A DNA stretch of 17,161 bases, taken from assembly GCA_965215005.1 (NCBI GenBank), contig CBDCCZ010000050.1, positions 1 through 17,161 of the forward strand, in the 5' to 3' direction. A program made the position numbers and the translations under genes. Below, piece by piece: positions 1-17,161 of the stretch (its first letter is position 1; the number at the start of each line of letters is the position of its first letter). Source of the DNA: Kofleriaceae bacterium. Lineage in GTDB: Bacteria; Myxococcota_A; Polyangia; Haliangiales; Haliangiaceae. The notes beneath the pieces were generated by a model, which saw only the letters and a list, made by a program, of their open reading frames with translations, did no database searches and was not told the origin of the DNA.

Positions 1-1
1 G

Positions 2-1312
2 CACGCCGCAGCGCATCCAGAGACGCCTGTCTCCCTCCCCATCGAAACACATCTCGGCTATTGGACGACGCAGCTACGCGGCGTGGAGCCGCTGCAGCTC
101 CCGACCGACTTCCCGCGGCCCAAGCGCGCTTCGGACGAAGCGGGCGCCGTGCCGGTGCGCATTCCCGCGGAGCTGAGCCAACGGGTGGCATCCTTCGCGC
201 GCGAGGAAGGGACCACTCCCTACGTGGTGTGGCTGTCGCTCTATGGTGCGCTCCTCGGTCGGCTCGGCCGCCAAGACGACCTCACCATTGGCAGCCCGGT
301 GGCCAATCGGCGCGACCCCAAGCTGGAAGGACTCATCGGCTTCTTTGTCAACACGGTGGTGCAGCGCCTCAACCTGAGCGGCCGGCCCTCGCTGCGCGAG
401 CTGGTGCGCCGCACGCACGAGACGGCGCTCCAAACGCAGGAGCATCAGGACGCCCCGTTCGAGCAAGTCGTGCAGGCGCTGGATGTCCCGCGCGACCTGT
501 CGTCGACGCCGCTCTTCCAAGCGATGCTCGCGTATCAGAGTGCACAAGGCGGTGAGCGCCTCGACGTCGGTGAGGTCACGTTCGAAGCGCTGCCTTCCGA
601 GCCCTCCGCGCAGTTCGACCTGAGCCTATCGCTGAGCGAATCGACCGCGTCGACCACCGGCGCGCTGGTGTACCGCTCCACGCTCTTCTCTCAGCAGACG
701 ATGGAGCGGCTGGTAGCGCACCTAGTGCGCCTGACGCGAGAGGCACTGTCCGCACCGTCGGAGCCGATGGTGGCACTGTCGCTGCTAGATGGCGACGAGC
801 GCACGCGCGTGTTGGAGCGCTTCCAGGGCGAGGCCGCAGCGGCCGATGTTCCGGATGTGCTGACCGCATTCCGCGCGCAGGCGAAGCAGCACCCGGATGC
901 GGAGGCGCTACGCTTCGAAGGCACTTCACTTACCTACGCGGAGCTCGACCGCCGCACCGACGCACTGGCGGCAGCGTTGCACGCACGAGGCATCGGACCG
1001 GGTAGTCGTGTGGGTCTGAAGCTCGAGCGGAGCCTGAGCCTGGTGGAAGCGGTGTGGGGCGTGTGGAAAGCGGGCGCGGCTTATGTGCCGCTGGACCCGT
1101 CGCTGCCGGCGGAGCGGCTGTCGTTCATGATGGAAGACGCGGCGCCACAGCTGGTGCTCACCGACGACGACGAGCACTCGGACGCATCGCTCTCGTTCAC
1201 TCAGCTGATGGAAGAGGGCGCTCGCGTCGGACCGCTCTGCGCCCAAGGTCTCGCTGACACCCACCACGCCGGCCTACCTCATCTACACGTCGGGCTCGAC
1301 GGGCAGACCTAA
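2..1312 (+). CDS. NRPS fragment 1: end of DCL C, half C domain, N-terminal part of A1; true frame lost at ~1217
   Basis: ORF 83..1312 extends upstream to 2 ([21 protein letters not shown]...); [32 protein letters not shown] motifs; the tail after MEE is out of frame. Confidence 0.85.
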   Translation, partial: HAAAHPETPVSLPIETHLGYWTTQLRGVEPLQLPTDFPRPKRASDEAGAVPVRIPAELSQRVASFAREEGTTPYVVWLSLYGALLGRLGRQDDLTIGSPVANRRDPKLEGLIGFFVNTVVQRLNLSGRPSLRELVRRTHETALQTQEHQDAPFEQVVQALDVPRDLSSTPLFQAMLAYQSAQGGERLDVGEVTFEALPSEPSAQFDLSLSLSESTASTTGALVYRSTLFSQQTMERLVAHLVRLTREALSAPSEPMVALSLLDGDERTRVLERFQGEAAAADVPDVLTAFRAQAKQHPDAEALRFEGTSLTYAELDRRTDALAAALHARGIGPGSRVGLKLERSLSLVEAVWGVWKAGAAYVPLDPSLPAERLSFMMEDAAPQLVLTDDDEHSDASLSFTQLMEEGARVGPLCAQGLADTHHAGLPHLHVGLDGQT

Positions 1313-4300
1313 AGGCGTGGTGTCACACCACGGTGGCTTGGCCAACCGCCTGCAGTGGATGCAGCAGGCGTATCCTGTTGGCATCGGCGATCGAGTGGCG
1401 CACAAAACGCCGTTCAGCTTCGATGTATCGGTATGGGAGCTAAGCTGGCCGCTGCTGACCGGAGCGACGCTGAGCGTGGCGCCTCCGGAGCTGCACCGCG
1501 ATGCGGCGGGGCTGCAGTCGTGGCTCGAAGCGGAAGAAGTGCGTGTGGTGCACTTCGTTCCGTCGATGCTGCGGGCGTGGCTGGAGACTGGCGCGCGCGC
1601 GGGCGCGCTACGCACGGTGGTGTGCAGTGGAGAAGCCTTGCCGGGCGCAGTCGCCGAGAGCTTCGCGCGGGCGCTGCCGACCGTGGCTCTCGAGAACCTC
1701 TACGGCCCCACCGAAGCCGGCCATCGACGTCACGCGCGCCAGCGTCGAAGCGGGTGCACCGATCACCTTGGGGCGACCGGTCCAAGGCACTCAGACCTAT
1801 GTGCTCGACGCCGCGCTGAAGCTCTGCGGCATCGGCGCGGTAGGCGAGCTGTACCTCGCCGGGATGCAGCTGGCGCACGGCTACCACGGTCGCTCCGCGC
1901 TGACGGCTGAGCGCTTCGTGCCTAATCCTTTCGGCGCGCCGGGCAGCCGGATGTACCGCACCGGGGACCTGGCGCGGTGGACCGAAAACGGCGAGCTGGA
2001 GTTTCTCGGCCGCGCAGACTTTCAGGTCAAAGTGCGCGGCTATCGCATCGAGCTCGGCGAGATCGAGTCGCAGCTACAGGCGCAGCCGTCGGTGCAGCAA
2101 GCGGTGGTCGTGGCACGGGACGAACGGCTGCATGCCTATGTCGTCACGGCCGACGCGACTGCGGACGCCACATCTCTACGTGCGGCGCTGAGCGCGGTCC
2201 TACCGGAGTACATGGTGCCGGCGACGTTCACGGCGCTGCCCTCGCTGCCGCTGACTCCGTCAGGCAAGCTGGACCGCCGCGCGCTGCCCGAGCCCGAGGT
2301 AGAGAAGGCGGTGTACGAGCCGCCGCGCGGCGAAGTGGAGCAAACGCTGGCAGCGTTGTGGCAGGAGCTGCTCGGTGTAGAGCGAGTCGGTCGCGGCGAC
2401 GACTTCTTCGCGCTCGGTGGCCATTCGCTCTTGGCCACGCGGCTGGTGGCGCGGGTAAGCTCGGAGCTCGGGCAGTCGCTGTCGCTACGCGACGTCTTCG
2501 AGCGGCCGCAGCTGGGCGCGATGGCGGAAGCGATTGGCGGGCAAGCGGCGACGCCGCCGCTCACGCGAGTGGAGCGCGAAGGCCCTCTTTTGGCGAGCTA
2601 CGCGCAAGAGCGGCAGTGGGTGCTGCACCAGCTGTCGCCCGAGTCTGCGGCGTACCACATGCCGGTGCTGTTGGAGGTGACCGGGACGCTGGATGACGCG
2701 GCGCTGGAACAGGCATTGAAGCAGCTGACCGAGCGGCACGAGGTGCTGCGCACGCGGCTCTACGAAGTGGACGGGGAGCTGCGGCCAGAGGTGCTGCCCG
2801 AGGCGCCGCTGCGGCTCGAGCGCTTCGCAATGACGCGCGCCGAAGCCGAGGCCCACGCCGGAGCGTGGATGCGCCGCCCATTCGCGCTCTCCGAAGGCGA
2901 GGTGCTGCGCGCAGCGCTCTACGAGCTCACCGATACCGATTCGCAGCTTCTGGCGTTCTGCATGCATCACATCGCATCGGACGGGGTATCCATGCAGGTG
3001 CTGGTGCGCGAGGTAGGCGCGCTTTTGAGTGGCGAGACGCTCGAGCCGTTGCCGGTGCAGTACGGCGACTACGCCGCGTGGCAGCGGCAATGGATGGAAG
3101 CGGGCGGAGAGCTTGAGCGGCAGCTCGGCTACTGGACGACGCAGCTCCAAGGCGTGGAGCCGCTGCAGCTTCCAACCGACTTCCCGCGGCCCAAGCGCGC
3201 TTCGGACGAAGCGGGCTCCGTGCCGGTGCGCATTCCCGCGGAGCTGAGCCAGCGCGTGCACACCTTTGCGCGCCAAGAGGGCACCACGCCCTACGTGGTG
3301 TGGCTGTCACTCTATGGCGCGCTCCTCGGTCGGCTCGGCCGCCAAGACGACCTCACCATTGGCAGCCCGGTGGCCAATCGCCGCGACCCCAAGCTGGAAG
3401 GACTCATCGGCTTCTTCGTCAACACGGTGGTGCAGCGGCTCGACCTGAGCGGCCGACCGTCGCTGCGGGAGCTGGTGCGCCGTACCCACGAGACCGCGCT
3501 CCAAACGCAGGAGCATCAGGACGCACCGTTCGAGCAAGTCGTGCAAGCGCTGGACGTCCCGCGCGACCTGTCGTCGACGCCGCTGTTCCAAGCGATGCTC
3601 GCGTATCAGAGTGACCAGCGCGCCGAGGGTGGTGAGCGCCTCGACCTTGGTGAGGTCACGTTGGAGGCGTTGCCTTCCGAGCCCTCCGCGCAGTTCGACC
3701 TGAACCTATCGCTGAGCGAATCGCCCGAGTCGACCTCTGGCGCGCTGGTGTACCGCTCCACGCTCTTCTCTCAGCAGACGATGGAGCGGCTGGTAGCGCA
3801 CCTAGTGCGCCTGACGCGAGAGGCACTGTCCGCACCGTCGGAGCCGATGGTGGCACTGTCGCTGCTAGATGGCGACGAGCGCACGCGCGTGTTGGAGCGC
3901 TTCCAGGGCGAGGCCGCAGCGGCCGATGTTCCGGATGTGCTGACCGCATTCCGCGCCCAGGCGAAGCAGCACCCGGATGCGGAGGCGCTACGCTTTGAAG
4001 GCACGTCACTTACCTACGCGGAGCTCGACCGCCGCACCGACGCGCTGGCGGCAGCGTTGCACGCACGAGGCATCGGACCGGGTAGTCGCGTGGGTCTGAA
4101 GCTCGAGCGGAGCCTGAGCCTGGTGGAAGCGGTGTGGGGCGTGTGGAAAGCCGGCGCAGCCTACATTCCCCTTGACCCTTCGCTGCCGGCCGAACGGCTA
4201 GCGTTCATGAGGGAGGACTCGGCGCCGGAGCTGTTGCTCACCGACGACGACGACGACTCAAATGCCTCGCTCTCGTTCGCTCGGCTGATGGAAGAGGCGC

Positions 4301-7300
4301 TCGCGTCGAACGCCTCCGCGCCCGAGGTATCGCTTGCGCCCACGACGCCGGCCTACCTCATCTACACGTCGGGCTCGACGGGCAGACCCAAAGGCGTGGT
4401 GTCGCACCACGGAGGCTTGGCCAACCGCCTGCAGTGGATGCAGCAGGCGTACACCATAGGCATCGGCGACCGAGTGGCGCACAAGACGCCGTTCAGCTTC
4501 GACGTATCTGTATGGGAGCTGAGCTGGCCGCTACTGACCGGAGCGACGCTGAGCGTGGCGCCACCGGAGCTGCACCGCGATGCGACGGCGCTGCAGTCGT
4601 GGCTCGAAGCGGAAGAAGTGCGCGTGGTGCACTTCGTTCCGTCGATGCTGCGGGCGTGGCTGGAGACCGGCGCGCGCGCGGGCGTACTACGCACGGTAGT
4701 GTGCAGTGGCGAAGCCTTGCCCGACGCGGTCGCCGAAAGCTTCGCGCGGGCTCTGCCGACCGTGGCTCTCGAGAATCCTCTACGGCCCCACCGAAGCGGC
4801 CATCGACGTCACGCGCGCCAGCGTCGAAGCGGGGTGCGCCGGTCACCTTGGGGCGACCGGTCCAAGGCACTCAGACCTATGTGCTCGATGCCGCGCTGAA
4901 GCCCTGCGGCATTGGCGCGGTGGGCGAGCTCTACCTCGGTGGCGTGCAGCTGGCGCACGGCTACCACGGGCGGTCGGAGCTCACTGCGGAGCGCTTCGTG
5001 CCCAATCCTTTCGGCGCGCCGGGCAGCCGGATGTACCGCACCGGGGACCTGGCGCGGTGGACCGAGAGCGGCGAGCTGGAGTTTCTCGGCCGCGCCGACT
5101 TTCAGGTCAAAGTGCGCGGCTATCGCATCGAGCTCGGCGAGATCGAGTCGCAGCTGGAGGCGCAGCCCTCGGTGCAGCAAGCGGTGGTCGTCGCGCGGGA
5201 CGAACGGCTGCATGCCTATGTAGTCACGAAAGATGCAACTGCGGACGCCGCGTCTCTACACGCGCCGCGCTGAGCGCGGTTCTGCCGGAGTACATGGTGC
5301 CGGCGACGTACACGTCGCTCGAGTCCTTGCCGCTGACTCCGTCAGGCAAGCTGGACCGCCGCGCGCTTCCCGAGCCGGAGGTGGAGCAAGCGGATTACCA
5401 GCCGCCGCGTGACGAGATTGAACAGACGCTGGCGACGGTGTGGCAGAAGCTGCTCGGAGTGGCGCGGGTAGGGCGGCAAGACGACTTCTTCGCGCTGGGT
5501 GGCGACTCCATTGTGGCTCTGCAGCTCTTGGCGCGGCTGTCGTCGGCGGGAGTGCATCTGTCGCTGCGTGATGTGTTCGAGCATCCGGTGCTGTCAGCGC
5601 TGGCGAAGCAGCGGCGCGAGGCAGTGATCGCGGAGCAGGGTTTGGTCGAGGGCGAGCTGGCGCCGTTCCCCGTTCATCAAGAGTTCTTGGCGGAGGCGGC
5701 CGGTCGCGAGCATTTCAACCAAGCGTTTGTCCTATCCCTTGAGTCGCGCGTGAGCTTCGAGCGGGTGGAGGGGGCGGTAAAGCGGTTGGTGCGGCATCAC
5801 GACGCGCTGCGCCTTCGCTGGGAAACCACGGCAGACGGGGAGTGGCGCGGTGTATTCGGCCCGGCGGACGGCGCGGTGATGCTGGAGCTCGAAGACGTGT
5901 CGACGCTGCCCGCCGAAGCGCAGACCGCGCGCATCGAGTCGTTGTGTGCGGCCGCGCAGGCCCGCCTGAGTCTCGCGGGACCGATGGGCCGCGCCGTCTA
6001 TTTCGACACCGGCGAGCGGCCACGCTTGCTGCTGGCCTTCCACCATTTGGTGGTCGATGGCGTGAGTTGGCGCGTGCTGCTGCCGCAGCTGCAGGCGCTG
6101 TTGCTGGACCCGCAAGCGACGTTGCCGGCCAAGACCACGTCGGTGCAGCGGTGGGGCCAAGCGCTGGTGGAGGCCGCGCCGTGCCATGAAGGGCAGCTGC
6201 CGCGATGGACCGAGGCGGTGGAGCACGCGCGCGCGCAAAACCTCGGCCTCGGTCCCCAGCGGATCGCCGCTGAGCGCGTGACGCACAGCTTTACGCTGAG
6301 CGCGGCGACGACAACGGCGCTTCTGAGCCAGGCGTTGTCGCCGTATCGGTTGACCACCGAAGAGGTGTTGCTGGCAGCTTTGGCGCAAAGCTTTTCCGAG
6401 CAAGACGTGGTGGTGGTGACGCTCGAAGGTCACGGCCGCGAGGCAGAGGCCATCGACGCCAGCGTAGATCTATCGCGAACGATGGGCTGGTTCACCACGA
6501 TGTATCCGGTGGTGCTGCCGGTGCATCGCGACGCGGAGGCGCAGCTGGTGGCGGCCAAGGAGCAGCTGCGTGCAGTGCCGGACAAAGGCATCGGCTTTGG
6601 AGCACTGCAGTCGAGCCACCGGTCGCTACGGTATGCGCCCGACATGGTGTTCAACTACCTGGGTCAGACGCGAGGCGCGCTGAGCGCGGACGGTCTGGCA
6701 CTGGCACCGGAGAGCGCGGGTCCCTCGATGTCGGCGGAGCGCCCGCGCGAAGCGGTGACGGTGACAGCCATCGTCGTCGGCGAAGGGCGGATGCAGGTCT
6801 CGGTGGAGGTGGCGGCGCCGCAGGCTTCGCGAGGCGCTGAGCTCGCGAAAGCCATGGAGGCTTCGCTGCATCAGCTGCTGGCTCACCTGCAGCAGCCGGC
6901 GGTCGGTCGGTGGACTCCGAGCGACTTCTCGCTGGTCCCGGAGCTGACCGAGCGGGACCTGTCGGCGCTGCTGCAAGCGCACCCGCATCTGGAAGACATC
7001 TGGCCCTTGTCGCCGCTACAGCGAGGGCTGTACGTGCACGCGCGCCGCGACCGAAGTGCGTATGTGACACAGATGCGCCTCGATGTGGAGGGGGCGGACG
7101 AGGCGGCCTTGGAAGCGGGCCTGAGCCGGCTGCGCCAGGGCATGGAGCAGTCGGTGGAGGCACACAGCGCGGTCCGTGTGGCGATGCACACGCTCCGCGA
7201 CGGCACCGCGGTGCAGGTGGTTGTCCCCGCTCCACTGCCGTGGGTCGAAGAATACGCGTCCGCGGAGGCCGAGGACGAAGCGTGGCTGACGGAGGATCGC

Positions 7301-10300
7301 GCGCGCGGCTTCGTGCTGGAGGAGGCGCCGCTGATGCGCGTGAGCGTGCGCCGTTTGGGCGATGGTCGCGCGCAGCTGTTGTGGACCACGCACCACTTGG
7401 TGATGGATGGGTGGTCGCTGGCGCGATTCTTCCGCGACGTGGCGCAGGCGATGGCTGGGCAGCCAATCGTAAACGCGCCGAGCTACCGCGCGCACTTGCG
7501 GTCCATCGCCTCGGGACCGACGGCCGCGGAGGCGCGGAGCTATTTTGCGGAGTCGCTCGCGGGCGCTCGCAGCACGCGCCTGCTCCAGGCACCGACCGTG
7601 GGGGAAACGCCGCACGTCGTGGAGCACACGGTCGAGGTGCCGCTGGCGCCTCTGGCGCAGTGGGCGGCCTCGGCGCACACGACGGTCGCCAATCTGGTGG
7701 CGACGGCCTACGCGGCCACGCTGGGAAGCTTCGCGCAGACCCGTGACGTAGTGTTCGGCCAGACGACGTCGGGCCGCTCGCCCGACCGACCCGAGAGTCA
7801 CGACACGGTAGGGCTGTTCATCAATACGCTTCCGGTGCGCCTGCGGTGGGAAGGCGGCGAGTCTCCCCGCGAGCTGGCCGCGCGCATGCAGTCGGATTTC
7901 TTGGAGCGGCAGCGCCACGAGCAGACGCCGCTAGTAGACGCCCTCGGCGCCGCAGGTCTACGCGACTTCGACGCGCTGTACGTCTTCGAAAACTATCCGG
8001 TGGAGAAGGCGGTGCAAACGCAGCCGAGCGATGCGGGGCTCACGCTACAAATGCGGAGCTCACGCGAGCCCACGCACTATAGCGTCGCATTGGTTGCTTC
8101 CACCTCGGAGGACCGGCTGCAGCTGCGGCTGGGCGTCGATGAACGGCGGGCGTCGGAATACTGGAGCGCGGCGTTTCTGACGGCCTTGACCCAGTGGCTA
8201 GCGCACGCCGCAGCGCATCCAGAGACGCCTGTCTCCCTCCCCATCGAAACACATCTCGGCTATTGGACGACGCAGCTACGCGGCGTGGAGCCGCTGCAGC
8301 TCCCGACCGACTTCCCGCGGCCCAAGCGCGCTTCGGACGAAGCGGGCGCCGTGCCGGTGCGCATTCCCGCGGAGCTGAGCCAACGGGTGGCATCCTTCGC
8401 GCGCGAGGAAGGGACCACTCCCTACGTGGTGTGGCTGTCGCTCTATGGTGCGCTCCTCGGTCGGCTCGGCCGCCAAGACGACCTCACCATTGGCAGCCCG
8501 GTGGCCAATCGGCGCGACCCCAAGCTGGAAGGACTCATCGGCTTCTTTGTCAACACGGTGGTGCAGCGCCTCAACCTGAGCGGCCGGCCCTCGCTGCGCG
8601 AGCTGGTGCGCCGTACCCACGAGACGGCGCTCCAAACGCAGGAGCATCAGGACGCACCGTTCGAGCAAGTCGTGCAGGCGCTCGATGTCCCACGCGACCT
8701 GTCGTCGACGCCGCTGTTCCAAGCGATGCTCGCGTATCAGAGTGCACAAGGCGGTGAGCGACTCGACCTCGGTGAGGTCACGTTCGAAGCGCTGCCTTCC
8801 GAGCCCTCCGCGCAGTTCGACCTGAACCTATCGCTGAGCGAATCGCCCGAGTCGACCACCGGCGCGTTGGTGTACCGCTCCACGCTCTTCTCTCAGCAGA
8901 CGATGGAGCGGCTGGTAGCGCACCTAGTGCGCCTGACGCGAGAGGCACTGTCCGCACCGTCGGAGCCGATGGTGGCACTGTCGCTGCTAGATGGCGACGA
9001 GCGCACGCGCGTGTTGGAGCGCTTCCAGGGCGAGGCCGCAGCGGCCGATGTTCCGGATGTGCTGACCGCATTCCGCGCGCAGGCGAAGCAGCACCCGGAT
9101 GCGGAGGCGCTACGCTTCGAAGGCACTTCACTTACCTACGCGGAGCTCGACCGCCGCACCGACGCACTGGCGGCAGCGTTGCACGCACGAGGCATCGGAC
9201 CGGGTAGTCGTGTGGGTCTGAAGCTCGAGCGGAGCCTGAGCCTGGTGGAAGCGGTGTGGGGCGTGTGGAAAGCGGGCGCGGCTTATGTGCCGCTGGACCC
9301 GTCGCTGCCGGCGGAGCGGCTGTCGTTCATGATGGAAGACGCGGCGCCACAGCTGGTGCTCACCGACGACGACGAGCACTCGGACGCATCGCTCTCGTTC
9401 ACTCAGCTGATGGAAGAGGGCGCTCGCGTCGGACCGCTCTGCGCCCAAGGTCTCGCTGACACCCACCACGCCGGCCTACCTCATCTACACGTCGGGCTCG
9501 ACGGGCAGACCTAAAGGCGTGGTGTCACACCACGGTGGCTTGGCCAACCGCCTGCAGTGGATGCAGCAGGCGTATCCTGTTGGCATCGGCGATCGAGTGG
9601 CGCACAAAACGCCGTTCAGCTTCGATGTATCGGTATGGGAGCTAAGCTGGCCGCTGCTGACCGGAGCGACGCTGAGCGTGGCGCCTCCGGAGCTGCACCG
9701 CGATGCGGCGGGGCTGCAGTCGTGGCTCGAAGCGGAAGAAGTGCGTGTGGTGCACTTCGTTCCGTCGATGCTGCGGGCGTGGCTGGAGACTGGCGCGCGC
9801 GCGGGCGCGCTACGCACGGTGGTGTGCAGTGGAGAAGCCTTGCCGGGCGCAGTCGCCGAGAGCTTCGCGCGGGCGCTGCCGACCGTGGCTCTCGAGAACC
9901 TCTACGGCCCCACCGAAGCGGCCATCGACGTCACGCGCGCCAGCGTCGAAGCGGGTGCACCGATCACCTTGGGGCGACCGGTCCAAGGCACTCAGACCTA
10001 TGTGCTCGACGCCGCGCTGAAGCTCTGCGGCATCGGCGCGGTAGGCGAGCTGTACCTCGCCGGGATGCAGCTGGCGCACGGCTACCACGGTCGCTCCGCG
10101 CTGACGGCTGAGCGCTTCGTGCCTAATCCTTTCGGCGCGCCGGGCAGCCGGATGTACCGCACCGGGGACCTGGCGCGGTGGACCGAAAACGGCGAGCTGG
10201 AGTTTCTCGGCCGCGCAGACTTTCAGGTCAAAGTGCGCGGCTATCGCATCGAGCTCGGCGAGATCGAGTCGCAGCTACAGGCGCAGCCGTCGGTGCAGCA

Positions 10301-13300
10301 AGCGGTGGTCGTGGCACGGGACGAACGGCTGCATGCCTATGTCGTCACGGCCGACGCGACTGCGGACGCCACATCTCTACGTGCGGCGCTGAGCGCGGTC
10401 CTACCGGAGTACATGGTGCCGGCGACGTTCACGGCGCTGCCCTCGCTGCCGCTGACTCCGTCAGGCAAGCTGGACCGCCGCGCGCTGCCCGAGCCCGAGG
10501 TAGAGAAGGCGGTGTACGAGCCGCCGCGCGGCGAAGTGGAGCAAACGCTGGCAGCGTTGTGGCAGGAGCTGCTCGGTGTAGAGCGAGTCGGTCGCGGCGA
10601 CGACTTCTTCGCGCTCGGTGGCCATTCGCTCTTGGCCACGCGGCTGGTGGCGCGGGTAAGCTCGGAGCTCGGGCAGTCGCTGTCGCTACGCGACGTCTTC
10701 GAGCGGCCGCAGCTGGGCGCGATGGCGGAAGCGATTGGCGGGCAAGCGGCGACGCCGCCGCTCACGCGAGTGGAGCGCGAAGGCCCTCTTTTGGCGAGCT
10801 ACGCGCAAGAGCGGCAGTGGGTGCTGCACCAGCTGTCGCCCGAGTCTGCGGCGTACCACATGCCGGTGCTGTTGGAGGTGACCGGGACGCTGGATGACGC
10901 GGCGCTGGAACAGGCATTGAAGCAGCTGACCGAGCGGCACGAGGTGCTGCGCACGCGGCTCTACGAAGTGGACGGGGAGCTGCGGCCAGAGGTGCTGCCC
11001 GAGGCGCCGCTGCGGCTCGAGCGCTTCGCAATGACGCGCGCCGAAGCCGAGGCCCACGCCGGAGCGTGGATGCGCCGCCCATTCGCGCTCTCCGTAGGCG
11101 AGGTGCTGCGCGCAGCGCTCTACGAGCTCACCGATACCGATTCGCAGCTTCTGGCGTTCTGCATGCATCACATCGCATCGGACGGGGTATCCATGCAGGT
11201 GCTGGTGCGCGAGGTAGGCGCGCTTTTGAGTGGCGAGACGCTCGAGCCGTTGCCGGTGCAGTACGGCGACTACGCCGCGTGGCAGCGGCAATGGATGGAA
11301 GCGGGCGGAGAGCTTGAGCGGCAGCTCGGCTACTGGACGACGCAGCTCCAAGGCGTGGAGCCGCTGCAGCTTCCAACCGACTTCCCGCGGCCCAAGCGCG
11401 CTTCGGACGAAGCGGGCTCCGTGCCGGTGCGCATTCCCGCGGACCTGAGCCAGCGCGTGCACACCTTTGCGCGCCAAGAGGGCACCACGCCCTACGTGGT
11501 GTGGCTGTCACTCTATGGCGCGCTCCTCGGTCGGCTCGGCCGCCAAGACGACCTCACCATTGGCAGCCCGGTGGCCAATCGCCGCGACCCCAAGCTGGAA
11601 GGACTCATCGGCTTCTTCGTCAACACGGTGGTGCAGCGGCTCGACCTGAGCGGCCGACCGTCGCTGCGGGAGCTGGTGCGCCGTACCCACGAGACCGCGC
11701 TCCAAACGCAGGAGCATCAGGACGCACCGTTCGAGCAAGTCGTGCAAGCGCTGGACGTCCCGCGCGACCTGTCGTCGACGCCGCTGTTCCAAGCGATGCT
11801 CGCGTATCAGAGTGACCAGCGCGCCGAGGGTGGTGAGCGCCTCGACCTTGGTGAGGTCACGTTGGAGGCGTTGCCTTCCGAGCCCTCCGCGCAGTTCGAC
11901 CTGAACCTATCGCTGAGCGAATCGCCCGAGTCGACCTCTGGCGCGCTGGTGTACCGCTCCACGCTCTTCTCTCAGCAGACGATGGAGCGGCTGGTAGCGC
12001 ACCTAGTGCGCCTGACGCGAGAGGCACTGTCCGCACCGTCGGAGCCGATGGTGGCACTGTCGCTGCTAGATGGCGACGAGCGCACGCGCGTGTTGGAGCG
12101 CTTCCAGGGCGAGGCCGCAGCGGCCGATGTTCCGGATGTGCTGACCGCATTCCGCGCCCAGGCGAAGCAGCACCCGGATGCGGAGGCGCTACGCTTTGAA
12201 GGCACGTCACTTACCTACGCGGAGCTCGACCGCCGCACCGACGCGCTGGCGGCAGCGTTGCACGCACGAGGCATCGGACCGGGTAGTCGCGTGGGTCTGA
12301 AGCTCGAGCGGAGCCTGAGCCTGGTGGAAGCGGTGTGGGGCGTGTGGAAAGCCGGCGCAGCCTACATTCCCCTTGACCCTTCGCTGCCGGCCGAACGGCT
12401 AGCGTTCATGAGGGAGGACTCGGCGCCGGAGCTGTTGCTCACCGACGACGACGACGACTCAAATGCCTCGCTCTCGTTCGCTCGGCTGATGGAAGAGGCG
12501 CTCGCGTCGAACGCCTCCGCGCCCGAGGTATCGCTTGCGCCCACGACGCCGGCCTACCTCATCTACACGTCGGGCTCGACGGGCAGACCCAAAGGCGTGG
12601 TGTCGCACCACGGAGGCTTGGCCAACCGCCTGCAGTGGATGCAGCAGGCGTACACCATAGGCATCGGCGACCGAGTGGCGCACAAGACGCCGTTCAGCTT
12701 CGACGTATCTGTATGGGAGCTGAGCTGGCCGCTACTGACCGGAGCGACGCTGAGCGTGGCGCCACCGGAGCTGCACCGCGATGCGACGGCGCTGCAGTCG
12801 TGGCTCGAAGCGGAAGAAGTGCGCGTGGTGCACTTCGTTCCGTCGATGCTGCGGGCGTGGCTGGAGACCGGCGCGCGCGCGGGCGTACTACGCACGGTAG
12901 TGTGCAGTGGCGAAGCCTTGCCCGACGCGGTCGCCGAAAGCTTCGCGCGGGCTCTGCCGACCGTGGCTCGCGAGAATCTCTACGGCCCCACCGAAGCGGC
13001 CATCGACGTCACGCGCGCCAGCGTCGAAGCGGGTGCGCCGGTCACCTTGGGGCGACCGGTCCAAGGCACTCAGACCTATGTGCTCGATGCCGCGCTGAAG
13101 CCCTGCGGCATTGGCGCGGTGGGCGAGCTCTACCTCGGTGGCGTGCAGCTGGCGCACGGCTACCACGGGCGGTCGGAGCTCACTGCGGCGCGCTTCGTAC
13201 CCAATCCTTTCGGCGCGCCGTGCAGCCGAATGTACCGCACCGGGGACCTGGCGCGGTGGACCGAGAGCGGCGAGCTGGAGTTTCTCGGCCGTGCCGACTT

Positions 13301-16300
13301 TCAGGTCAAAGTGCGCGGCTATCGCATCGAGCTCGGCGAGATCGAATCGCAGCTACAGGAGCAGCCCTCGGTGCAGCAAGCAGTGGTCGTCGCGCGGGAC
13401 GAACGGCTGCATGCCTATGTAGTCACGAAAGATGCAACTGCGGACGCCGCGTCTCTGCGCACCGCGCTGAGCGCGGTTCTGCCGGAGTACATGGTGCCGG
13501 CGACGTACACGTCGCTCGAGTCCTTGCCGCTGACTCCGTCAGGCAAGCTGGACCGCCGCGCGCTTCCCGAGCCGGAGGTGGAGCAAGCGGATTACCAGCC
13601 GCCGCGTGACGAGATTGAACAGACGCTGGCGACGGTGTGGCAGAAGCTGCTCGGAGTGGCGCGGGTAGGGCGGCAAGACGACTTCTTCGCGCTGGGTGGC
13701 GACTCCATTGTGGCTCTGCAGCTCTTGGCGCGGCTGTCGTCGGCGGGAGTGCATCTGTCGCTGCGTGATGTGTTCGAGCATCCGGTGCTGTCAGCGCTGG
13801 CGAAGCAGCGGCGCGAGGCAGTGATCGCGGAGCAGGGTTTGGTCGAGGGCGAGCTGGCGCCGTTCCCCGTTCATCAAGAGTTCTTGGCGGAGGCGGCCGG
13901 TCGCGAGCATTTCAACCAAGCGTTTGTCCTATCCCTTGAGTCGCGCGTGAGCTTCGAGCGGGTGGAGGGGGCGGTAAAGCGGTTGGTGCGGCATCACGAC
14001 GCGCTGCGCCTTCGCTGGGAAACCACGGCAGACGGGGAGTGGCGCGGTGTATTCGGCCCGGCGGACGGCGCGGTGATGCTGGAGCTCGAAGACGTGTCGA
14101 CGCTGCCCGCCGAAGCGCAGACCGCGCGCATCGAGTCGTTGTGTGCGGCCGCGCAGGCCCGCCTGAGTCTCGCGGGACCGATGGGCCGCGCCGTCTATTT
14201 CGACACCGGCGAGCGGCCACGCTTGCTGCTGGCCTTCCACCATTTGGTGGTCGATGGCGTGAGTTGGCGCGTGCTGCTGCCGCAGCTGCAGGCGCTGTTG
14301 CTGGACCCGCAAGCGACGTTGCCGGCCAAGACCACGTCGGTGCAGCGGTGGGGCCAAGCGCTGGTGGAGGCCGCGCCGTGCCATGAAGGGCAGCTGCCGC
14401 GATGGACCGAGGCGGTGGAGCACGCGCGCGCGCAAAACCTCGGCCTCGGTCCCCAGCGGATCGCCGCTGAGCGCGTGACGCACAGCTTTACGCTGAGCGC
14501 GGCGACGACAACGGCGCTTCTGAGCCAGGCGTTGTCGCCGTATCGGTTGACCACCGAAGAGGTGTTGCTGGCAGCTTTGGCGCAAAGCTTTTCCGAGCAA
14601 GACGTGGTGGTGGTGACGCTCGAAGGTCACGGCCGCGAGGCAGAGGCCATCGACGCCAGCGTAGATCTATCGCGAACGATGGGCTGGTTCACCACGATGT
14701 ATCCGGTGGTGCTGCCGGTGCATCGCGACGCGGAGGCGCAGCTGGTGGCGGCCAAGGAGCAGCTGCGTGCAGTGCCGGACAAAGGCATCGGCTTTGGAGC
14801 ACTGCAGTCGAGCCACCGGTCGCTACGGTATGCGCCCGACATGGTGTTCAACTACCTGGGTCAGACGCGAGGCGCGCTGAGCGCGGACGGTCTGGCACTG
14901 GCACCGGAGAGCGCGGGGTCCCTCGATGTCGGCGGAGCGCCCGCGCGAAGCGGTGACGGTGACAGCCATCGTCGTCGGCGAAGGGCGGATGCAGGTCTCG
15001 GTGGAGGTGGCGGCGCCGCAGGCTTCGCGAGGCGCTGAGCTCGCGAAAAGCCATGGAGGCTTCGCTGCATCAGCTGCTGGCTCACCTGCAGCAGCCGGCG
15101 GTCGGTCGGTGGACTCCGAGCGACTTCTCGCTGGTCCCGGAGCTGACCGAGCGGGACCTGTCGGCGCTGCTGCAAGCGCACCCGCATCTGGAAGACATCT
15201 GGCCCTTGTCGCCGCTACAGCGAGGGCTGTACGTGCACGCGCGCCGCGACCGAAGTGCGTATGTGACACAGATGCGCCTCGATGTGGAGGGGGCGGACGA
15301 GGCGGCCTTGGAAGCGGGCCTGAGCCGGCTGCGCCAGGGCATGGAGCAGTCGGTGGAGGCACACAGCGCGGTCCGTGTGGCGATGCACACGCTCCGCGAC
15401 GGCACCGCGGTGCAGGTGGTTGTCCCCGCTCCACTGCCGTGGGTCGAAGAATACGCGTCCGCGGAGGCCGAGGACGAAGCGTGGCTGACGGAGATCGCGC
15501 GCGCGGCTTCGTGCTGGAGGAGGCGCCGCTGATGCGCGTGAGCGTGCGCCGTTTGGGCGATGGTCGCGCGCAGCTGTTGTGGACCACGCACCACTTGGTG
15601 ATGGATGGGTGGTCGCTGGCGCGATTCTTCCGCGACGTGGCGCAGGCGATGGCTGGGCAGCCAATCGTAAACGCGCCGAGCTACCGCGCGCACTTGCGGT
15701 CCATCGCCTCGGGACCGACGGCCGCGGAGGCGCGGAGCTATTTTGCGGAGTCGCTCGCGGGCGCTCGCAGCACGCGCCTGCTCCAGGCACCGACCGTGGG
15801 GGAAACGCCGCACGTCGTGGAGCACACGGTCGAGGTGCCGCTGGCGCCTCTGGCGCAGTGGGCGGCCTCGGGCGCACACGACGGTCGCCAATCTGGTGGC
15901 GACGGCCTACGCGGCCACGCTGGGAAGCTTCGCGCAGACCCGTGACGTAGTGTTCGGCCAGACGACGTCGGGCCGCTCGCCCGACCGACCCGAGAGTCAC
16001 GACACGGTAGGGCTGTTCATCAATACGCTTCCGGTGCGCCTGCGGTGGGAAGGCGGCGAGTCTCCCCGCGAGCTGGCCGCGCGCATGCAGTCGGATTTCT
16101 TGGAGCGGCAGCGCCACGAGCAGACGCCGCTAGTAGACGCCCTCGGCGCCGCAGGTCTACGCGACTTCGACGCGCTGTACGTCTTCGAAAACTATCCGGT
16201 GGAGAAGGCGGTGCAAACGCAGCCGAGCGATGCGGGGCTCACGCTACAAATGCGGAGCTCACGCGAGCCCACGCACTATAGCGTCGCATTGGTTGCTTCC

Positions 16301-17159
16301 ACCTCGGGAGGACCGGCTGCAGCTGCGGCTGGGCGTCGATGAACGGCGGGCGTCGGAATACTGGAGCGCGGCGTTTCTGACGGCCTTGACCCAGTGGCTA
16401 GCGCACGCCGCAGCGCATCCAGAGACGCCTGTCTCCCTCCCCATCGAAACACATCTCGGCTATTGGACGACGCAGCTACGCGGCGTGGAGCCGCTGCAGC
16501 TCCCGACCGACTTCCCGCGGCCCAAGCGCGCTTCGGACGAAGCGGGCGCCGTGCCGGTGCGCATTCCCGCGGAGCTGAGCCAACGGGTGGCATCCTTCGC
16601 GCGCGAGGAAGGGACCACTCCCTACGTGGTGTGGCTGTCGCTCTATGGTGCGCTCCTCGGTCGGCTCGGCCGCCAAGACGACCTCACCATTGGCAGCCCG
16701 GTGGCCAATCGGCGCGACCCCAAGCTGGAAGGACTCATCGGCTTCTTTGTCAACACGGTGGTGCAGCGCCTCAACCTGAGCGGCCGGCCCTCGCTGCGCG
16801 AGCTGGTGCGCCGCACGCACGAGACGGCGCTCCAAACGCAGGAGCATCAGGACGCCCCGTTCGAGCAAGTCGTGCAGGCGCTGGATGTCCCGCGCGACCT
16901 GTCGTCGACGCCGCTCTTCCAAGCGATGCTCGCGTATCAGAGTGCACAAGGCGGTGAGCGCCTCGACGTCGGTGAGGTCACGTTCGAAGCGCTGCCTTCC
17001 GAGCCCTCCGCGCAGTTCGACCTGAGCCTATCGCTGAGCGAATCGACCGCGTCGACCACCGGCGCGCTGGTGTACCGCTCCACGCTCTTCTCTCAGCAGA
17101 CGATGGAGCGGCTGGTAGCGCACCTAGTGCGCCTGACGCGAGAGGCACTGTCCGCACCG
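2..17159 (+). CDS. Giant multimodular NRPS, internal fragment open at both window ends; reconstructed across 11 small indels. Architecture: (halfC-A-T-C-A-T-E-C)x2-halfC
   Basis: Continuous NRPS motifs once frames are joined: A-domain cores ([68 protein letters not shown]), T motifs (FFALGGHSL / FFALGGDSI), C motifs (HHIASDG, HHLVMDG), E motifs (HHLVVDG, EGHGRE, RTMGWF, FNYLGQ, TPSDF). Each copy-specific indel is absent from the sister copy. Confidence 0.93.
53..787 (+). other. Half condensation domain (C-terminal lobe of LCL type, no HHxxxDG), copy 1
   Basis: LGYWTTQL...LPTDFPRP...IGSPVANR...[10 protein letters not shown]...HQDAPFE; paralogous to 3124-3867. Confidence 0.85.
850..2295 (+). 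other. Adenylation domain A1, predicted serine
   Basis: Core motifs A1-A10; code DVWHVSLIDK read from FDVSVW, VVHFVP, TVVCSG, NLYG, AAID, SGK; boundaries approximate. Confidence 0.88.
1317..1910 (+). CDS. NRPS fragment 2: A1 substrate-binding core (in-frame part ~1218-1717)
   Basis: NRLQWMQ...FSFDVSVWE...HFVPSML...CSGEAL...NLYGPTEA; the tail after PTEA is out of frame because of an extra C at 1717-1718. Confidence 0.8.
   Translation: MVSHHGGLANRLQWMQQAYPVGIGDRVAHKTPFSFDVSVWELSWPLLTGATLSVAPPELHRDAAGLQSWLEAEEVRVVHFVPSMLRAWLETGARAGALRTVVCSGEALPGAVAESFARALPTVALENLYGPTEAGHRRHARQRRSGCTDHLGATGPRHSDLCARRRAEALRHRRGRRAVPRRDAAGARLPRSLRADG
1501..4899 (+). CDS. NRPS fragment 3: A1 C-terminal part, T, LCL C, most of A2 (in-frame part ~1720-4776)
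   Basis: 1132 aa ORF with [29 protein letters not shown]; both ends are out-of-frame extensions. Confidence 0.85.
2314..2540 (+). other. Thiolation (PCP) domain T1, GGHSL type; Ppant Ser codon at 2425
   Basis: [16 protein letters not shown]. Confidence 0.92.
2584..3867 (+). other. Condensation domain, LCL type
   Basis: [25 protein letters not shown] (2965-2985), [33 protein letters not shown]; follows a module without E. Confidence 0.9.
3930..5376 (+). other. Adenylation domain A2, predicted serine
   Basis: Same motifs and same DVWHVSLIDK code as A1; boundaries approximate. Confidence 0.88.
4434..5273 (+). CDS. NRPS fragment 4: A2 motifs A6-A8 (in-frame part ~4833-5258)
   Basis: GAPVTLGRP...GELYLGG...YRTGDL...[20 protein letters not shown] in the second half of the ORF. 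Confidence 0.75.
4706..9514 (+). CDS. NRPS fragment 5: end of A2, T, E, DCL C, half C, N-terminal part of next A1 (in-frame part ~5264-9418)
   Basis: 1602 aa ORF with [40 protein letters not shown]. Confidence 0.88.
5396..5610 (+). other. Thiolation domain T2, GGDSI type (epimerase-associated); Ser codon at 5507
   Basis: [16 protein letters not shown] directly upstream of an E domain. Confidence 0.92.
5640..6935 (+). other. Epimerization (E) domain
   Basis: [21 protein letters not shown] (6041), LEGHGRE (6425), [33 protein letters not shown]. Confidence 0.93.
6990..8245 (+). other. Condensation domain, DCL type, complete
   Basis: [32 protein letters not shown] (7391), [28 protein letters not shown]; follows E. 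Confidence 0.9.
8255..8989 (+). other. Half condensation domain (LCL C-terminal lobe), copy 2
   Basis: In frame directly after the complete DCL domain: [36 protein letters not shown]. Confidence 0.87.
9052..10496 (+). other. Adenylation domain A1', predicted serine
   Basis: Copy of A1; code DVWHVSLIDK. Confidence 0.88.
9519..15038 (+). CDS. NRPS fragment 6: A1 core, T, LCL C, A2, T, most of E (in-frame part ~9420-14916)
   Basis: 1839 aa ORF, uninterrupted across the positions that are frameshifted in copy 1. Confidence 0.9.
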   Translation: MVSHHGGLANRLQWMQQAYPVGIGDRVAHKTPFSFDVSVWELSWPLLTGATLSVAPPELHRDAAGLQSWLEAEEVRVVHFVPSMLRAWLETGARAGALRTVVCSGEALPGAVAESFARALPTVALENLYGPTEAAIDVTRASVEAGAPITLGRPVQGTQTYVLDAALKLCGIGAVGELYLAGMQLAHGYHGRSALTAERFVPNPFGAPGSRMYRTGDLARWTENGELEFLGRADFQVKVRGYRIELGEIESQLQAQPSVQQAVVVARDERLHAYVVTADATADATSLRAALSAVLPEYMVPATFTALPSLPLTPSGKLDRRALPEPEVEKAVYEPPRGEVEQTLAALWQELLGVERVGRGDDFFALGGHSLLATRLVARVSSELGQSLSLRDVFERPQLGAMAEAIGGQAATPPLTRVEREGPLLASYAQERQWVLHQLSPESAAYHMPVLLEVTGTLDDAALEQALKQLTERHEVLRTRLYEVDGELRPEVLPEAPLRLERFAMTRAEAEAHAGAWMRRPFALSVGEVLRAALYELTDTDSQLLAFCMHHIASDGVSMQVLVREVGALLSGETLEPLPVQYGDYAAWQRQWMEAGGELERQLGYWTTQLQGVEPLQLPTDFPRPKRASDEAGSVPVRIPADLSQRVHTFARQEGTTPYVVWLSLYGALLGRLGRQDDLTIGSPVANRRDPKLEGLIGFFVNTVVQRLDLSGRPSLRELVRRTHETALQTQEHQDAPFEQVVQALDVPRDLSSTPLFQAMLAYQSDQRAEGGERLDLGEVTLEALPSEPSAQFDLNLSLSESPESTSGALVYRSTLFSQQTMERLVAHLVRLTREALSAPSEPMVALSLLDGDERTRVLERFQGEAAAADVPDVLTAFRAQAKQHPDAEALRFEGTSLTYAELDRRTDALAAALHARGIGPGSRVGLKLERSLSLVEAVWGVWKAGAAYIPLDPSLPAERLAFMREDSAPELLLTDDDDDSNASLSFARLMEEALASNASAPEVSLAPTTPAYLIYTSGSTGRPKGVVSHHGGLANRLQWMQQAYTIGIGDRVAHKTPFSFDVSVWELSWPLLTGATLSVAPPELHRDATALQSWLEAEEVRVVHFVPSMLRAWLETGARAGVLRTVVCSGEALPDAVAESFARALPTVARENLYGPTEAAIDVTRASVEAGAPVTLGRPVQGTQTYVLDAALKPCGIGAVGELYLGGVQLAHGYHGRSELTAARFVPNPFGAPCSRMYRTGDLARWTESGELEFLGRADFQVKVRGYRIELGEIESQLQEQPSVQQAVVVARDERLHAYVVTKDATADAASLRTALSAVLPEYMVPATYTSLESLPLTPSGKLDRRALPEPEVEQADYQPPRDEIEQTLATVWQKLLGVARVGRQDDFFALGGDSIVALQLLARLSSAGVHLSLRDVFEHPVLSALAKQRREAVIAEQGLVEGELAPFPVHQEFLAEAAGREHFNQAFVLSLESRVSFERVEGAVKRLVRHHDALRLRWETTADGEWRGVFGPADGAVMLELEDVSTLPAEAQTARIESLCAAAQARLSLAGPMGRAVYFDTGERPRLLLAFHHLVVDGVSWRVLLPQLQALLLDPQATLPAKTTSVQRWGQALVEAAPCHEGQLPRWTEAVEHARAQNLGLGPQRIAAERVTHSFTLSAATTTALLSQALSPYRLTTEEVLLAALAQSFSEQDVVVVTLEGHGREAEAIDASVDLSRTMGWFTTMYPVVLPVHRDAEAQLVAAKEQLRAVPDKGIGFGALQSSHRSLRYAPDMVFNYLGQTRGALSADGLALAPESAGSLDVGGAPARSGDGDSHRRRRRADAGLGGGGGAAGFARR
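10515..10741 (+). other. Thiolation domain T1' (GGHSL)
   Basis: [12 protein letters not shown]. Confidence 0.92.
10785..12068 (+). other. Condensation domain LCL'
   Basis: [10 protein letters not shown] at 11166; copy of 2584-3867. Confidence 0.9.
12131..13573 (+). other. Adenylation domain A2', predicted serine
   Basis: Uninterrupted A domain; code DVWHVSLIDK. Confidence 0.9.
13593..13807 (+). other. Thiolation domain T2' (GGDSI)
   Basis: [12 protein letters not shown]. Confidence 0.92.
13837..15134 (+). other. Epimerization domain E'
   Basis: [27 protein letters not shown]; two +1 indels near the C-terminus. Confidence 0.9.
14918..17159 (+). CDS. NRPS fragments 7-11: end of E, DCL C and half C of copy 2/3, broken by indels at ~15047, ~15493, ~15871, ~16307; runs off the window end
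   Basis: ORF-track pieces 14926..15945, 15053..15532, 15743..16342 and an open frame from 16308 together match the intact translation of 6720-8960. Confidence 0.82.
15189..16445 (+). other. Condensation domain DCL'
   Basis: [34 protein letters not shown]; three indels relative to copy 1. Confidence 0.87.
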
Positions 17160-17161
17160 TC
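16403..17161 (+). repeat. Tandem bimodule repeat, partial copy 3 (759 nt, appears identical to 1..759)
   Basis: Carries copy-1 alleles at all positions where copies 1 and 2 differ (e.g. cgcacgcac, gacgtcggt, ctgagccta, tcgaccgcg). Confidence 0.95.
16455..17161 (+). other. Half condensation domain (LCL C-terminal lobe), copy 3, cut by window end
   Basis: Same junction and sequence as 53-759. Confidence 0.85.

What the first reader, a model, noticed from the sequence alone, without database searches (positions are those of the whole stretch)
850..16445. Assembly line predicted to build an alternating (L-Ser-D-Ser)n stretch
Seen: all four A domains have the same pocket residues, read by hand as D-V-W-H-V-S-L-I-D-K. 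Modules strictly alternate A-T(GGHSL)-LCL and A-T(GGDSI)-E-DCL. The window also opens on the tail of another DCL and ends entering another unit. Established: DVWH[V/F/L]SL[I/V]DK is the serine code (EntF and pyoverdine/syringomycin-type Ser modules); GGDSI PCPs pair with E domains; DCL accepts D-donors. Inference: the product contains at least four consecutive serines with alternating chirality, probably more. Strict L/D alternation is the pattern of beta-helix formers such as linear gramicidin, but those are hydrophobic. I do not recognise a known NRPS product with a long all-hydroxyl L/D-Ser tract. It could be a scaffold for O-acylation, glycosylation or dehydration, or a metal- or ice-binding polymer (speculative).
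Basis: partly seen in the sequence, partly recalled or inferred. Interest (0 to 1): 0.82.

Follow-up and report, generated by a model that had tools for sequence, protein, structure and literature searches.

The report
Doubled serine-rich peptide synthetase fragment
This is a piece of a bacterial peptide assembly line predicted to add serines, but its four modules are two modules present twice, likely because the genome assembly looped, so the product is predicted to carry one mirror-image serine in a mixed serine-rich peptide rather than a long alternating chain.

Summary
The serine pocket codes and the A-T-LCL / A-T-E-DCL order are real. But the window is a whole contig made of two 99.5%-identical copies of one 8.2-kb unit, with identical 759-base ends, so the 'four modules' are two seen twice. 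In the one informative run, contigs over E-DCL have depth 5.5-6.7 against 6.2-8.7 for a single-copy control (ratio 0.75; two copies predict 2). The doubling is therefore likely an assembly loop; a real duplication is not excluded (about 0.2). Sibling modules with 81-94% identical C-lobes include an Asn-coded one on contig C30, and a database protein adds a third pocket type, so the line is not all-serine. The window does not open on a plain DCL tail: a complete DCL is fused in frame to an extra half LCL domain. A read-derived contig confirms the junction, and it was unique among 1,275 C-A junctions surveyed. A first-reader note on this same window had flagged it; the scan showed nothing like it on other DNA. 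Likely product: a serine-rich peptide with a run of about three serines, one of them D. Both Ser-Ser-Ser and D-Ser-L-Ser occur in published peptides. Host: myxobacterium-like.

The parts
1..8202 (+). Copy 1 of the 8.2-kb unit
   Evidence: 99.45% identical to copy 2; 27 substitutions, 10 indel columns
8203..16402 (+). Copy 2 of the unit; likely an assembly repeat of copy 1
   Evidence: depth of E-DCL near one copy
16403..17161 (+). Exact repeat of bases 1-759 (contig closes on itself)
   Evidence: 100% over 759 bases; only such contig of 62
53..802 (+). Extra C-terminal half of an LCL domain (variant X), no HHxxxDG motif
   Evidence: Pfam PF00668 positions 191-452; 12 substitutions against the copy at 8255
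869..2271 (+). A1, serine-type adenylation domain; frameshifts near 1215 (shared with copy 2) and 1717
2341..2535 (+). T domain, GGHSL
2590..3882 (+). LCL condensation domain, HHIASDG intact
   Evidence: nearest solved chains Txo2, Txo1 (run on the copy-2 domain)
3949..5353 (+). A2, serine-type adenylation domain; frameshifts at 4777, 4831, 5258-5259, likely errors
   Evidence: read-derived contigs lack these bases (table 4)
5423..5608 (+). T domain, GGDSI
5630..6934 (+). Epimerization domain, HHLVVDG and EGHGRE intact
   Evidence: X1 contig 5338-7272 with 0 differences, depth 5.52
6992..8236 (+). Complete DCL condensation domain, HHLVMDG intact
   Evidence: Pfam 2-442; nearest solved chains
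8255..9004 (+). Extra C-terminal half LCL (variant Y), in frame after the DCL
   Evidence: one ORF 4700-9514; X1 contig 7676-8293 crosses the junction with 0 differences
9071..10472 (+). A1 copy (code DVWHVSLID); frameshift near 9416
10542..10736 (+). T domain, GGHSL
10791..12083 (+). LCL copy
12150..13550 (+). A2 copy, unbroken (code DVWHVSLID)
13620..13805 (+). T domain, GGDSI
13827..16445 (+). E and DCL copy, broken by five single-base indels (14915, 15046, 15492, 15870, 16306)
   Evidence: none listed in read-derived contigs (table 4)

Best explanation
The window is a fragment of a multi-module NRPS whose 8.2-kb unit (half-LCL, Ser-type A, T, LCL, Ser-type A, T, E, DCL) appears twice, likely because the assembler went round a repeat loop, so the genome likely holds one E-DCL and is predicted to make a serine-rich peptide with one D-Ser, not an (L-Ser-D-Ser)n chain. 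Shown: the doubling, the codes, the domain order, the in-frame DCL/half-LCL junction, and sibling modules with other codes. Inferred mechanism: A1 and A2 load L-Ser; LCL joins them; E converts the GGDSI-bound Ser to D; DCL passes it to the next Ser-type module. The extra C-lobe has no catalytic motif. It likely is the scar of an in-frame deletion or recombination between near-identical modules and would keep its usual contact with the following A domain. Opening the loop at one of its near-identical stretches gives about three adjacent Ser-type modules with one D. Elsewhere the line likely adds Asn (C30) and a further, possibly basic, residue (P0100).
For: Two copies 99.45% alike with exact 759-base ends, whereas the other paralogous modules differ by 6-19%. 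No substitution between copies over 5265-8202. X1 contigs on E-DCL have depth 5.52, 6.66, 6.14; the eight listed X1 contigs on a 19-kb rpoB/rpoC stretch have 6.19-8.65; weighted ratio 0.75. One X1 contig crosses the DCL end unbroken (7676-8293), so no second continuation of the DCL is seen, which a fresh tandem duplication would leave (inference). The five indels of copy 2 are not listed in the contigs, while the control stretch shows no differences or indels. Exact blocks of 211 and 482 bases shared between paralogues offer jump points. C30 reads T-LCL-A[DATKVGEVG]-T-LCL-A[DVWHVSLID]-T; DATKVGEVGK is listed as Asn in PMC3547906. P0100 is 88-91% identical to the window's LCL halves and carries A[DAEDVGTVT].
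Against: The tool warns that contig depth is no copy number. X1 and X2 are one sample, probably the source sample, and X2 sits at about 2 on both stretches, so it tells nothing. Two short X1 contigs on the NRPS have depth 3.2 and 3.8, about half the E-DCL value. The NRPS contigs lie in the lowest 3-4% of 745 genome segments by 4-mer likeness, so they could belong to a rarer organism. The copies differ by two clusters of 12 substitutions (412-665, 4990-5264), and several in the first are private and silent, which looks like real sequence. No read or contig spans the whole unit. C30, P0100 and C50 are linked by sequence likeness only. Substrates and epimerization are untested.
Confidence: 0.68

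Rival explanations
1. The unit is really tandemly repeated two or more times and the line builds (L-Ser-D-Ser)n with n of 2 or more; the extra C-lobe is part of each unit.
For: The assembly holds two copies, with clustered and partly silent differences. A unit starting mid-LCL and ending after the DCL is what a tandem duplication would give. Two short NRPS contigs have depth 3.2-3.8. Binning of C50 is not proven.
Against: Depth ratio 0.75, not 2. Other NRPS contigs in X1 have depth 6.2-10.3, not half of E-DCL. No branch at the DCL end. Exact terminal repeat. Even if true, Asn and other modules flank the tract.
Confidence: 0.2
2. This stretch is decaying: the inserted half domain uncouples the DCL from the next A-T, and the frameshift in A1 shared by both copies is real, so elongation stops at D-Ser.
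For: The frameshift near 1215 / 9416 is in both copies. P0100 also goes out of frame within about ten codons of that place. The fused half domain was seen in no other junction of 1,275.
Against: All catalytic motifs are intact. The half lobe differs from the LCL by 18 silent and 6 replacement codons in 118. The shared frameshift sits in a short G run like the other likely errors.
Confidence: 0.1
3. The serines are dehydrated to dehydroalanine by modAA-type condensation domains.
For: Serine codes also feed dehydroalanine modules (recalled for microcystin McyA; no call).
Against: The post-E domain scores 101-121 bits against BacC, PvdL, surfactin, TycB and McyB chains but 51-53 against AmbE and McyA; the LCL scores 279-292 against Txo1/Txo2 but 46 against AmbE and McyA. 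The subtype labels of these chains are recalled.
Confidence: 0.02

Closest known systems
Serine modules of PvdJ (pyoverdine), EntF, Txo1/Txo2 (teixobactin), fuscachelin FscH
   Same: Eight-residue code DVWHVSLI is identical to PvdJ-M1-Ser (PMC3207962, table passage). The pocket region's best solved matches are FscH, Txo1, Txo2, 8xjz and EntF.
   Different: Among source-named proteins the A-domain region matched at 44-55%. No gene cluster matching this one was found among 137 family genomes at E 1e-110.
Serine-rich NRPS peptides: pyoverdine of P. fluorescens Pf0-1, lactuchelin, BII-rafflesfungin, potashchelins, qinichelins
   Same: Ser-Ser-Ser runs (PMC4219678, PMC13037486, PMC6518819; passages) and D-Ser-L-Ser steps (PMC7100376, bioRxiv 10.1101/163170; passages). 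Rafflesfungin has Asn-Ser-Ser-Ser.
   Different: No iron-binding residue module or tailoring gene is linked here; start and end of the line are not assembled.
Unnamed relatives P0001, P0002, P0100
   Same: P0001 (60% in A) reads Ser-, Asn-like, Ser-, Val-like, Ser-like codes; P0100 shares the LCL at 88-91%.
   Different: None has an E domain or the extra C-lobe. The Val and Asn-like labels for P0001 are my reading of the codes.
Linear gramicidin (alternating L/D beta-helix former)
   Same: LgrA is the top whole-chain hit for the A domain because it has two A domains.
   Different: Alternation there comes from many distinct E modules (recalled); here one E module is likely counted twice, and residues are polar.
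XUC exchange unit (CAsub-A-PCP-CDsub) and interface (I) domains
   Same: The extra piece is the C-terminal subdomain that contacts the A domain; such a subdomain alone can affect the McyB A domain (PMC11546977, passages).
   Different: Here it follows a complete DCL instead of pairing with an N-terminal subdomain. I domains are reported only at the start of a pathway (PMC10212144, passage), and this lobe is 93% like its sibling LCL.

Membership tests
Multimodular type I NRPS | C-A-T(-E) domains in one reading frame with intact core motifs | tested here: met
   frames are broken at places likely to be errors
Serine-activating A domain | Pocket code DVWH-x-SL-x-DK | tested here: met
Serine-activating A domain | Measured adenylation of serine | not testable with these tools
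   needs an assay
Epimerizing module | GGDSI T domain, E domain with HHxxxD and EGHGRE, followed by DCL | tested here: met
   GGDSI/GGHSL pairing in PMC10212144; TIGR01720 scores 66.9, under its cut-off 74.2
Strictly alternating L/D assembly line | Two or more real E-containing modules alternating with L modules | tested here: inconclusive
   second E is a near-identical copy; depth ratio 0.75 favours one copy; no spanning read
All-serine polymer synthetase | All modules of the line carry the serine code | tested here: not met
   sibling modules DATKVGEVG (C30) and DAEDVGTVT (P0100); linkage by sequence likeness only
modAA (dehydrating) C domain | Closer to AmbE/McyA than to DCL or LCL | tested here: not met
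   (score ranking, no tree)
Interface (I) domain | Located at the start of a pathway | tested here: not met
   internal, after a DCL; definition from PMC10212144
Peptide siderophore cluster | Linked chelator-forming modules, tailoring enzymes and uptake genes | not testable with these tools
   neither C50 nor C30 has flanking genes; no other C domain in the 62 contigs

The most novel reading that the evidence does not exclude
A myxobacterial NRPS really carries a tandem array of Ser-Ser-E units that builds an (L-Ser-D-Ser)n tract, and each hand-over runs through a working 'one-and-a-half' condensation domain in which an extra C-lobe holds the next A domain while the DCL catalyses.
Probability: 0.14. 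Interest if true: 0.72.

Novelty: new variant of a known kind. Interest (0 to 1): 0.3.

Why it matters
As it most likely stands, this is an unfinished serine-rich NRPS cluster of an uncultured myxobacterium-like organism and a warning that near-identical modules can be doubled by assemblers. The part worth keeping is the real in-frame DCL/half-LCL junction: a natural break at the boundary between the two C subdomains that engineers use for module swapping. It would let one test whether a C domain can still serve a module across a spare lobe. If the array were real, an all-hydroxyl alternating L/D tract would be an unusual peptide scaffold; my searches found only runs of two or three serines.

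Tried and rejected
16S search of the genome: 0 matches; taxonomy rests on RpoB, best 78% to a Myxococcales MAG and 68% to a Polyangiales MAG in a scan that covered 1 of 64 parts. Searches for the rest of the cluster: all 16 condensation matches lie on C30 and C50; no MbtH; six weak thioesterase matches, none linked; small contigs C35, C55, C29, C47 showed no NRPS-like ORF. No contig end joins C50 except by paralogy to C30. Relatives: 41 of 61 genomes matched, best 47% outside the own genome; 0 of 137 family genomes at E 1e-110; 76 metagenome loci for E-DCL, best 38% on short segments and 36% or less on long ones. X2 depth (about 2 everywhere) was set aside as uninformative. A structure prediction of DCL-halfC-A was dropped: the alignment (60 of 95 candidate pieces) put the DCL C-lobes on the extra lobe, which would have biased the model. 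Names and cluster sizes for P0001, P0002 and P0100 could not be obtained, so their origin is unknown. Paper searches with no hit: DAEDVGTV; 'truncated condensation domain' + NRPS + 'C-terminal lobe'. MIBiG, antiSMASH, NaPDoS and PARAS were not available.

Full report
What the window is. It is the whole of contig C50 in a 6.2-Mb, 62-contig genome, 92.8% complete. RpoB is closest to a Myxococcales MAG (78%) and a Polyangiales MAG (68%) in a partial scan, so the host is myxobacterium-like. The contig holds two copies of one 8.2-kb unit, 99.45% identical, and its first 759 bases equal its last 759. No other of the 62 contigs has such ends. The copies differ by 27 substitutions and 10 indel columns; 24 substitutions fall in two clusters (412-665 and 4990-5264) and none between 5265 and 8202.

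Anatomy. The unit reads half-LCL, A1, T(GGHSL), LCL, A2, T(GGDSI), E, DCL. The intact A domains give DVWHVSLID, with columns placed by motifs whose GrsA numbering is recalled; the first eight letters equal PvdJ-M1-Ser in a table passage of PMC3207962, and the pocket region aligns best to FscH, Txo1, Txo2, 8xjz and EntF. E keeps HHLVVDG and EGHGRE and matches PvdL, TycB and other E-containing chains. The post-E domain scores 101-121 bits against BacC, PvdL, surfactin, TycB and McyB chains and 51-53 against AmbE and McyA; the LCL scores 279-292 against Txo1/Txo2 and 46 against AmbE and McyA. With subtype labels recalled, they are DCL and LCL, not dehydrating domains. The T-motif pairing agrees with passages of PMC10212144.

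Is the doubling real? One public sample holds the stretch (runs X1, X2); it is probably the source sample and is kept as contigs only. On 3960-8950, three X1 contigs cover E-DCL with no differences at depth 5.52, 6.66 and 6.14 (8 X1 rows shown, 199 rows of both runs hidden). On a 19-kb stretch around rpoB/rpoC the eight listed X1 contigs have depth 6.19-8.65 (365 rows hidden). The length-weighted ratio is 0.75; two identical copies would give about 2. The contig 7676-8293 crosses the DCL end without a break, so no second continuation is seen. The five indels of copy 2 are not listed, and copy 1's extra bases at 4776, 4831 and 5258 are missing from contigs; the control shows no differences or indels. 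True paralogues in this cluster differ far more: 86-90% identity over A-T, 81-94% over C-lobes. Exact blocks of 211 bases (inside the unit) and 482 bases (with C30) give an assembler places to jump. Such misassembly of repeated clusters is discussed in passages of PMC5484115. Against this: the tool warns that depth is no copy number; X2 is uninformative; the other five X1 rows on the NRPS have depth 8.78, 6.72, 6.2, 3.81 and 3.21, the last two about half the E-DCL value; the NRPS contigs sit in the lowest 3-4% of 745 segments by 4-mer likeness, with GC3 0.82 near the genome's 95th percentile; and the 412-665 differences include private silent changes. I read those as two real paralogous lobes merged into one loop, but a real duplication remains possible (0.2).

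The line is not all serine. Contig C30 holds T-LCL-A[DATKVGEVG]-T-LCL-A[DVWHVSLID]-T, a stop, then a new gene starting with an LCL. DATKVGEVGK is predicted Asn in a table passage of PMC3547906. P0100, absent from the genome as a whole gene, is 88-91% identical to the window's LCL halves and reads C-A[DAEDVGTVT]-T-LCL-A(serine-type start); I read that code as likely basic from recall, and no paper held it. Of 28 read-derived letters checked, 9 match none of the seven assembled A-T rows, so a further serine-type allele exists in the sample, in this organism or a close strain. All 16 condensation matches in the genome lie on C30 and C50: the start, the end and the tailoring genes are missing.

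The extra half domain. After the complete DCL the frame runs on at about 8252 into the last helix and C-terminal subdomain of an LCL (Pfam 191-452), then A1. The stretch is 93% identical to the module's own LCL-A, with 18 silent and 6 replacement codons in the first 118. The X1 contig extends about 40 bases past the junction with no difference, so the junction is in the reads. In 510 proteins (270 database hits, 235 ORFs from 90 loci, 5 own), 3 of 1,275 C-lobe-A junctions had another lobe hit just before; two were split partial hits of one lobe, leaving only the window. The sample was chosen by likeness to the window and is not a census. I noted the junction before the look-up; note e1-8318165 on this window says the same. 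Passages of PMC11546977 describe the two subdomains, the A-contacting role of the C-terminal one and the XUC unit. The likeliest origin is an in-frame deletion or recombination; whether the DCL still reaches the next T is untested. One frameshift near 1215 / 9416 is in both copies and was not checked against reads.

Comparison. In the same survey 176 of 1,409 A hits were serine-coded; 27 other proteins had two adjacent serine modules and none had three within one protein. In print, Ser-Ser-Ser occurs in the Pf0-1 pyoverdine, lactuchelin and BII-rafflesfungin (passages), and D-Ser-L-Ser in potashchelins and qinichelins (passages). A three-serine run with one D residue is thus ordinary chemistry. 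My two searches showed no longer alternating tract; they cover open-access text only and I read no supplements. No close cluster was found in relatives.

Verdict. The residue-level reading is right; the headline likely is not. Best reading (0.68): one E-DCL in a serine-rich, mixed NRPS, doubled in assembly. Interest 0.3, carried mostly by the real half-domain fusion.

Noticed in passing
window 8236-9004: Complete DCL fused in frame to an extra LCL C-terminal subdomain; junction present in a read-derived contig; unique among 1,275 junctions surveyed.
   Followed up: yes
L018 (G000:C30, minus strand): Sibling NRPS contig with an Asn-coded module, a Ser-coded module, a gene boundary with acidic C-terminus and basic N-terminus (docking-like), and a frameshifted third LCL.
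   Followed up: partly
P0100: Protein 88-91% identical to the window's LCL, absent from the genome as a gene, with an N-terminal module coded DAEDVGTVT; it leaves frame within about ten codons of the window's shared A1 frameshift.
   Followed up: partly
P0001: Five-module relative (60% in A) with serine-type codes at every second module and a thioesterase-like end.
   Followed up: partly
window 4900-5340 and C30: The C-terminal part of the A domains is nearly the same in serine and non-serine modules; the Asn-coded domain shares many A2 alleles there, a sign of recombination or gene conversion.
   Followed up: partly
G000:C3:301218-312224: Two ketosynthase domains, carrier domains and two weak thioesterase matches: a separate PKS-type locus.
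   Followed up: no
G000 contig ends: Several contigs overlap exactly at their ends (C19/C41 179 bases, C49/C26 600 or more, C12/C55 546), and a multi-copy element of about 2 kb recurs on C3, C4, C19, C23, C39, C48, C60.
   Followed up: no
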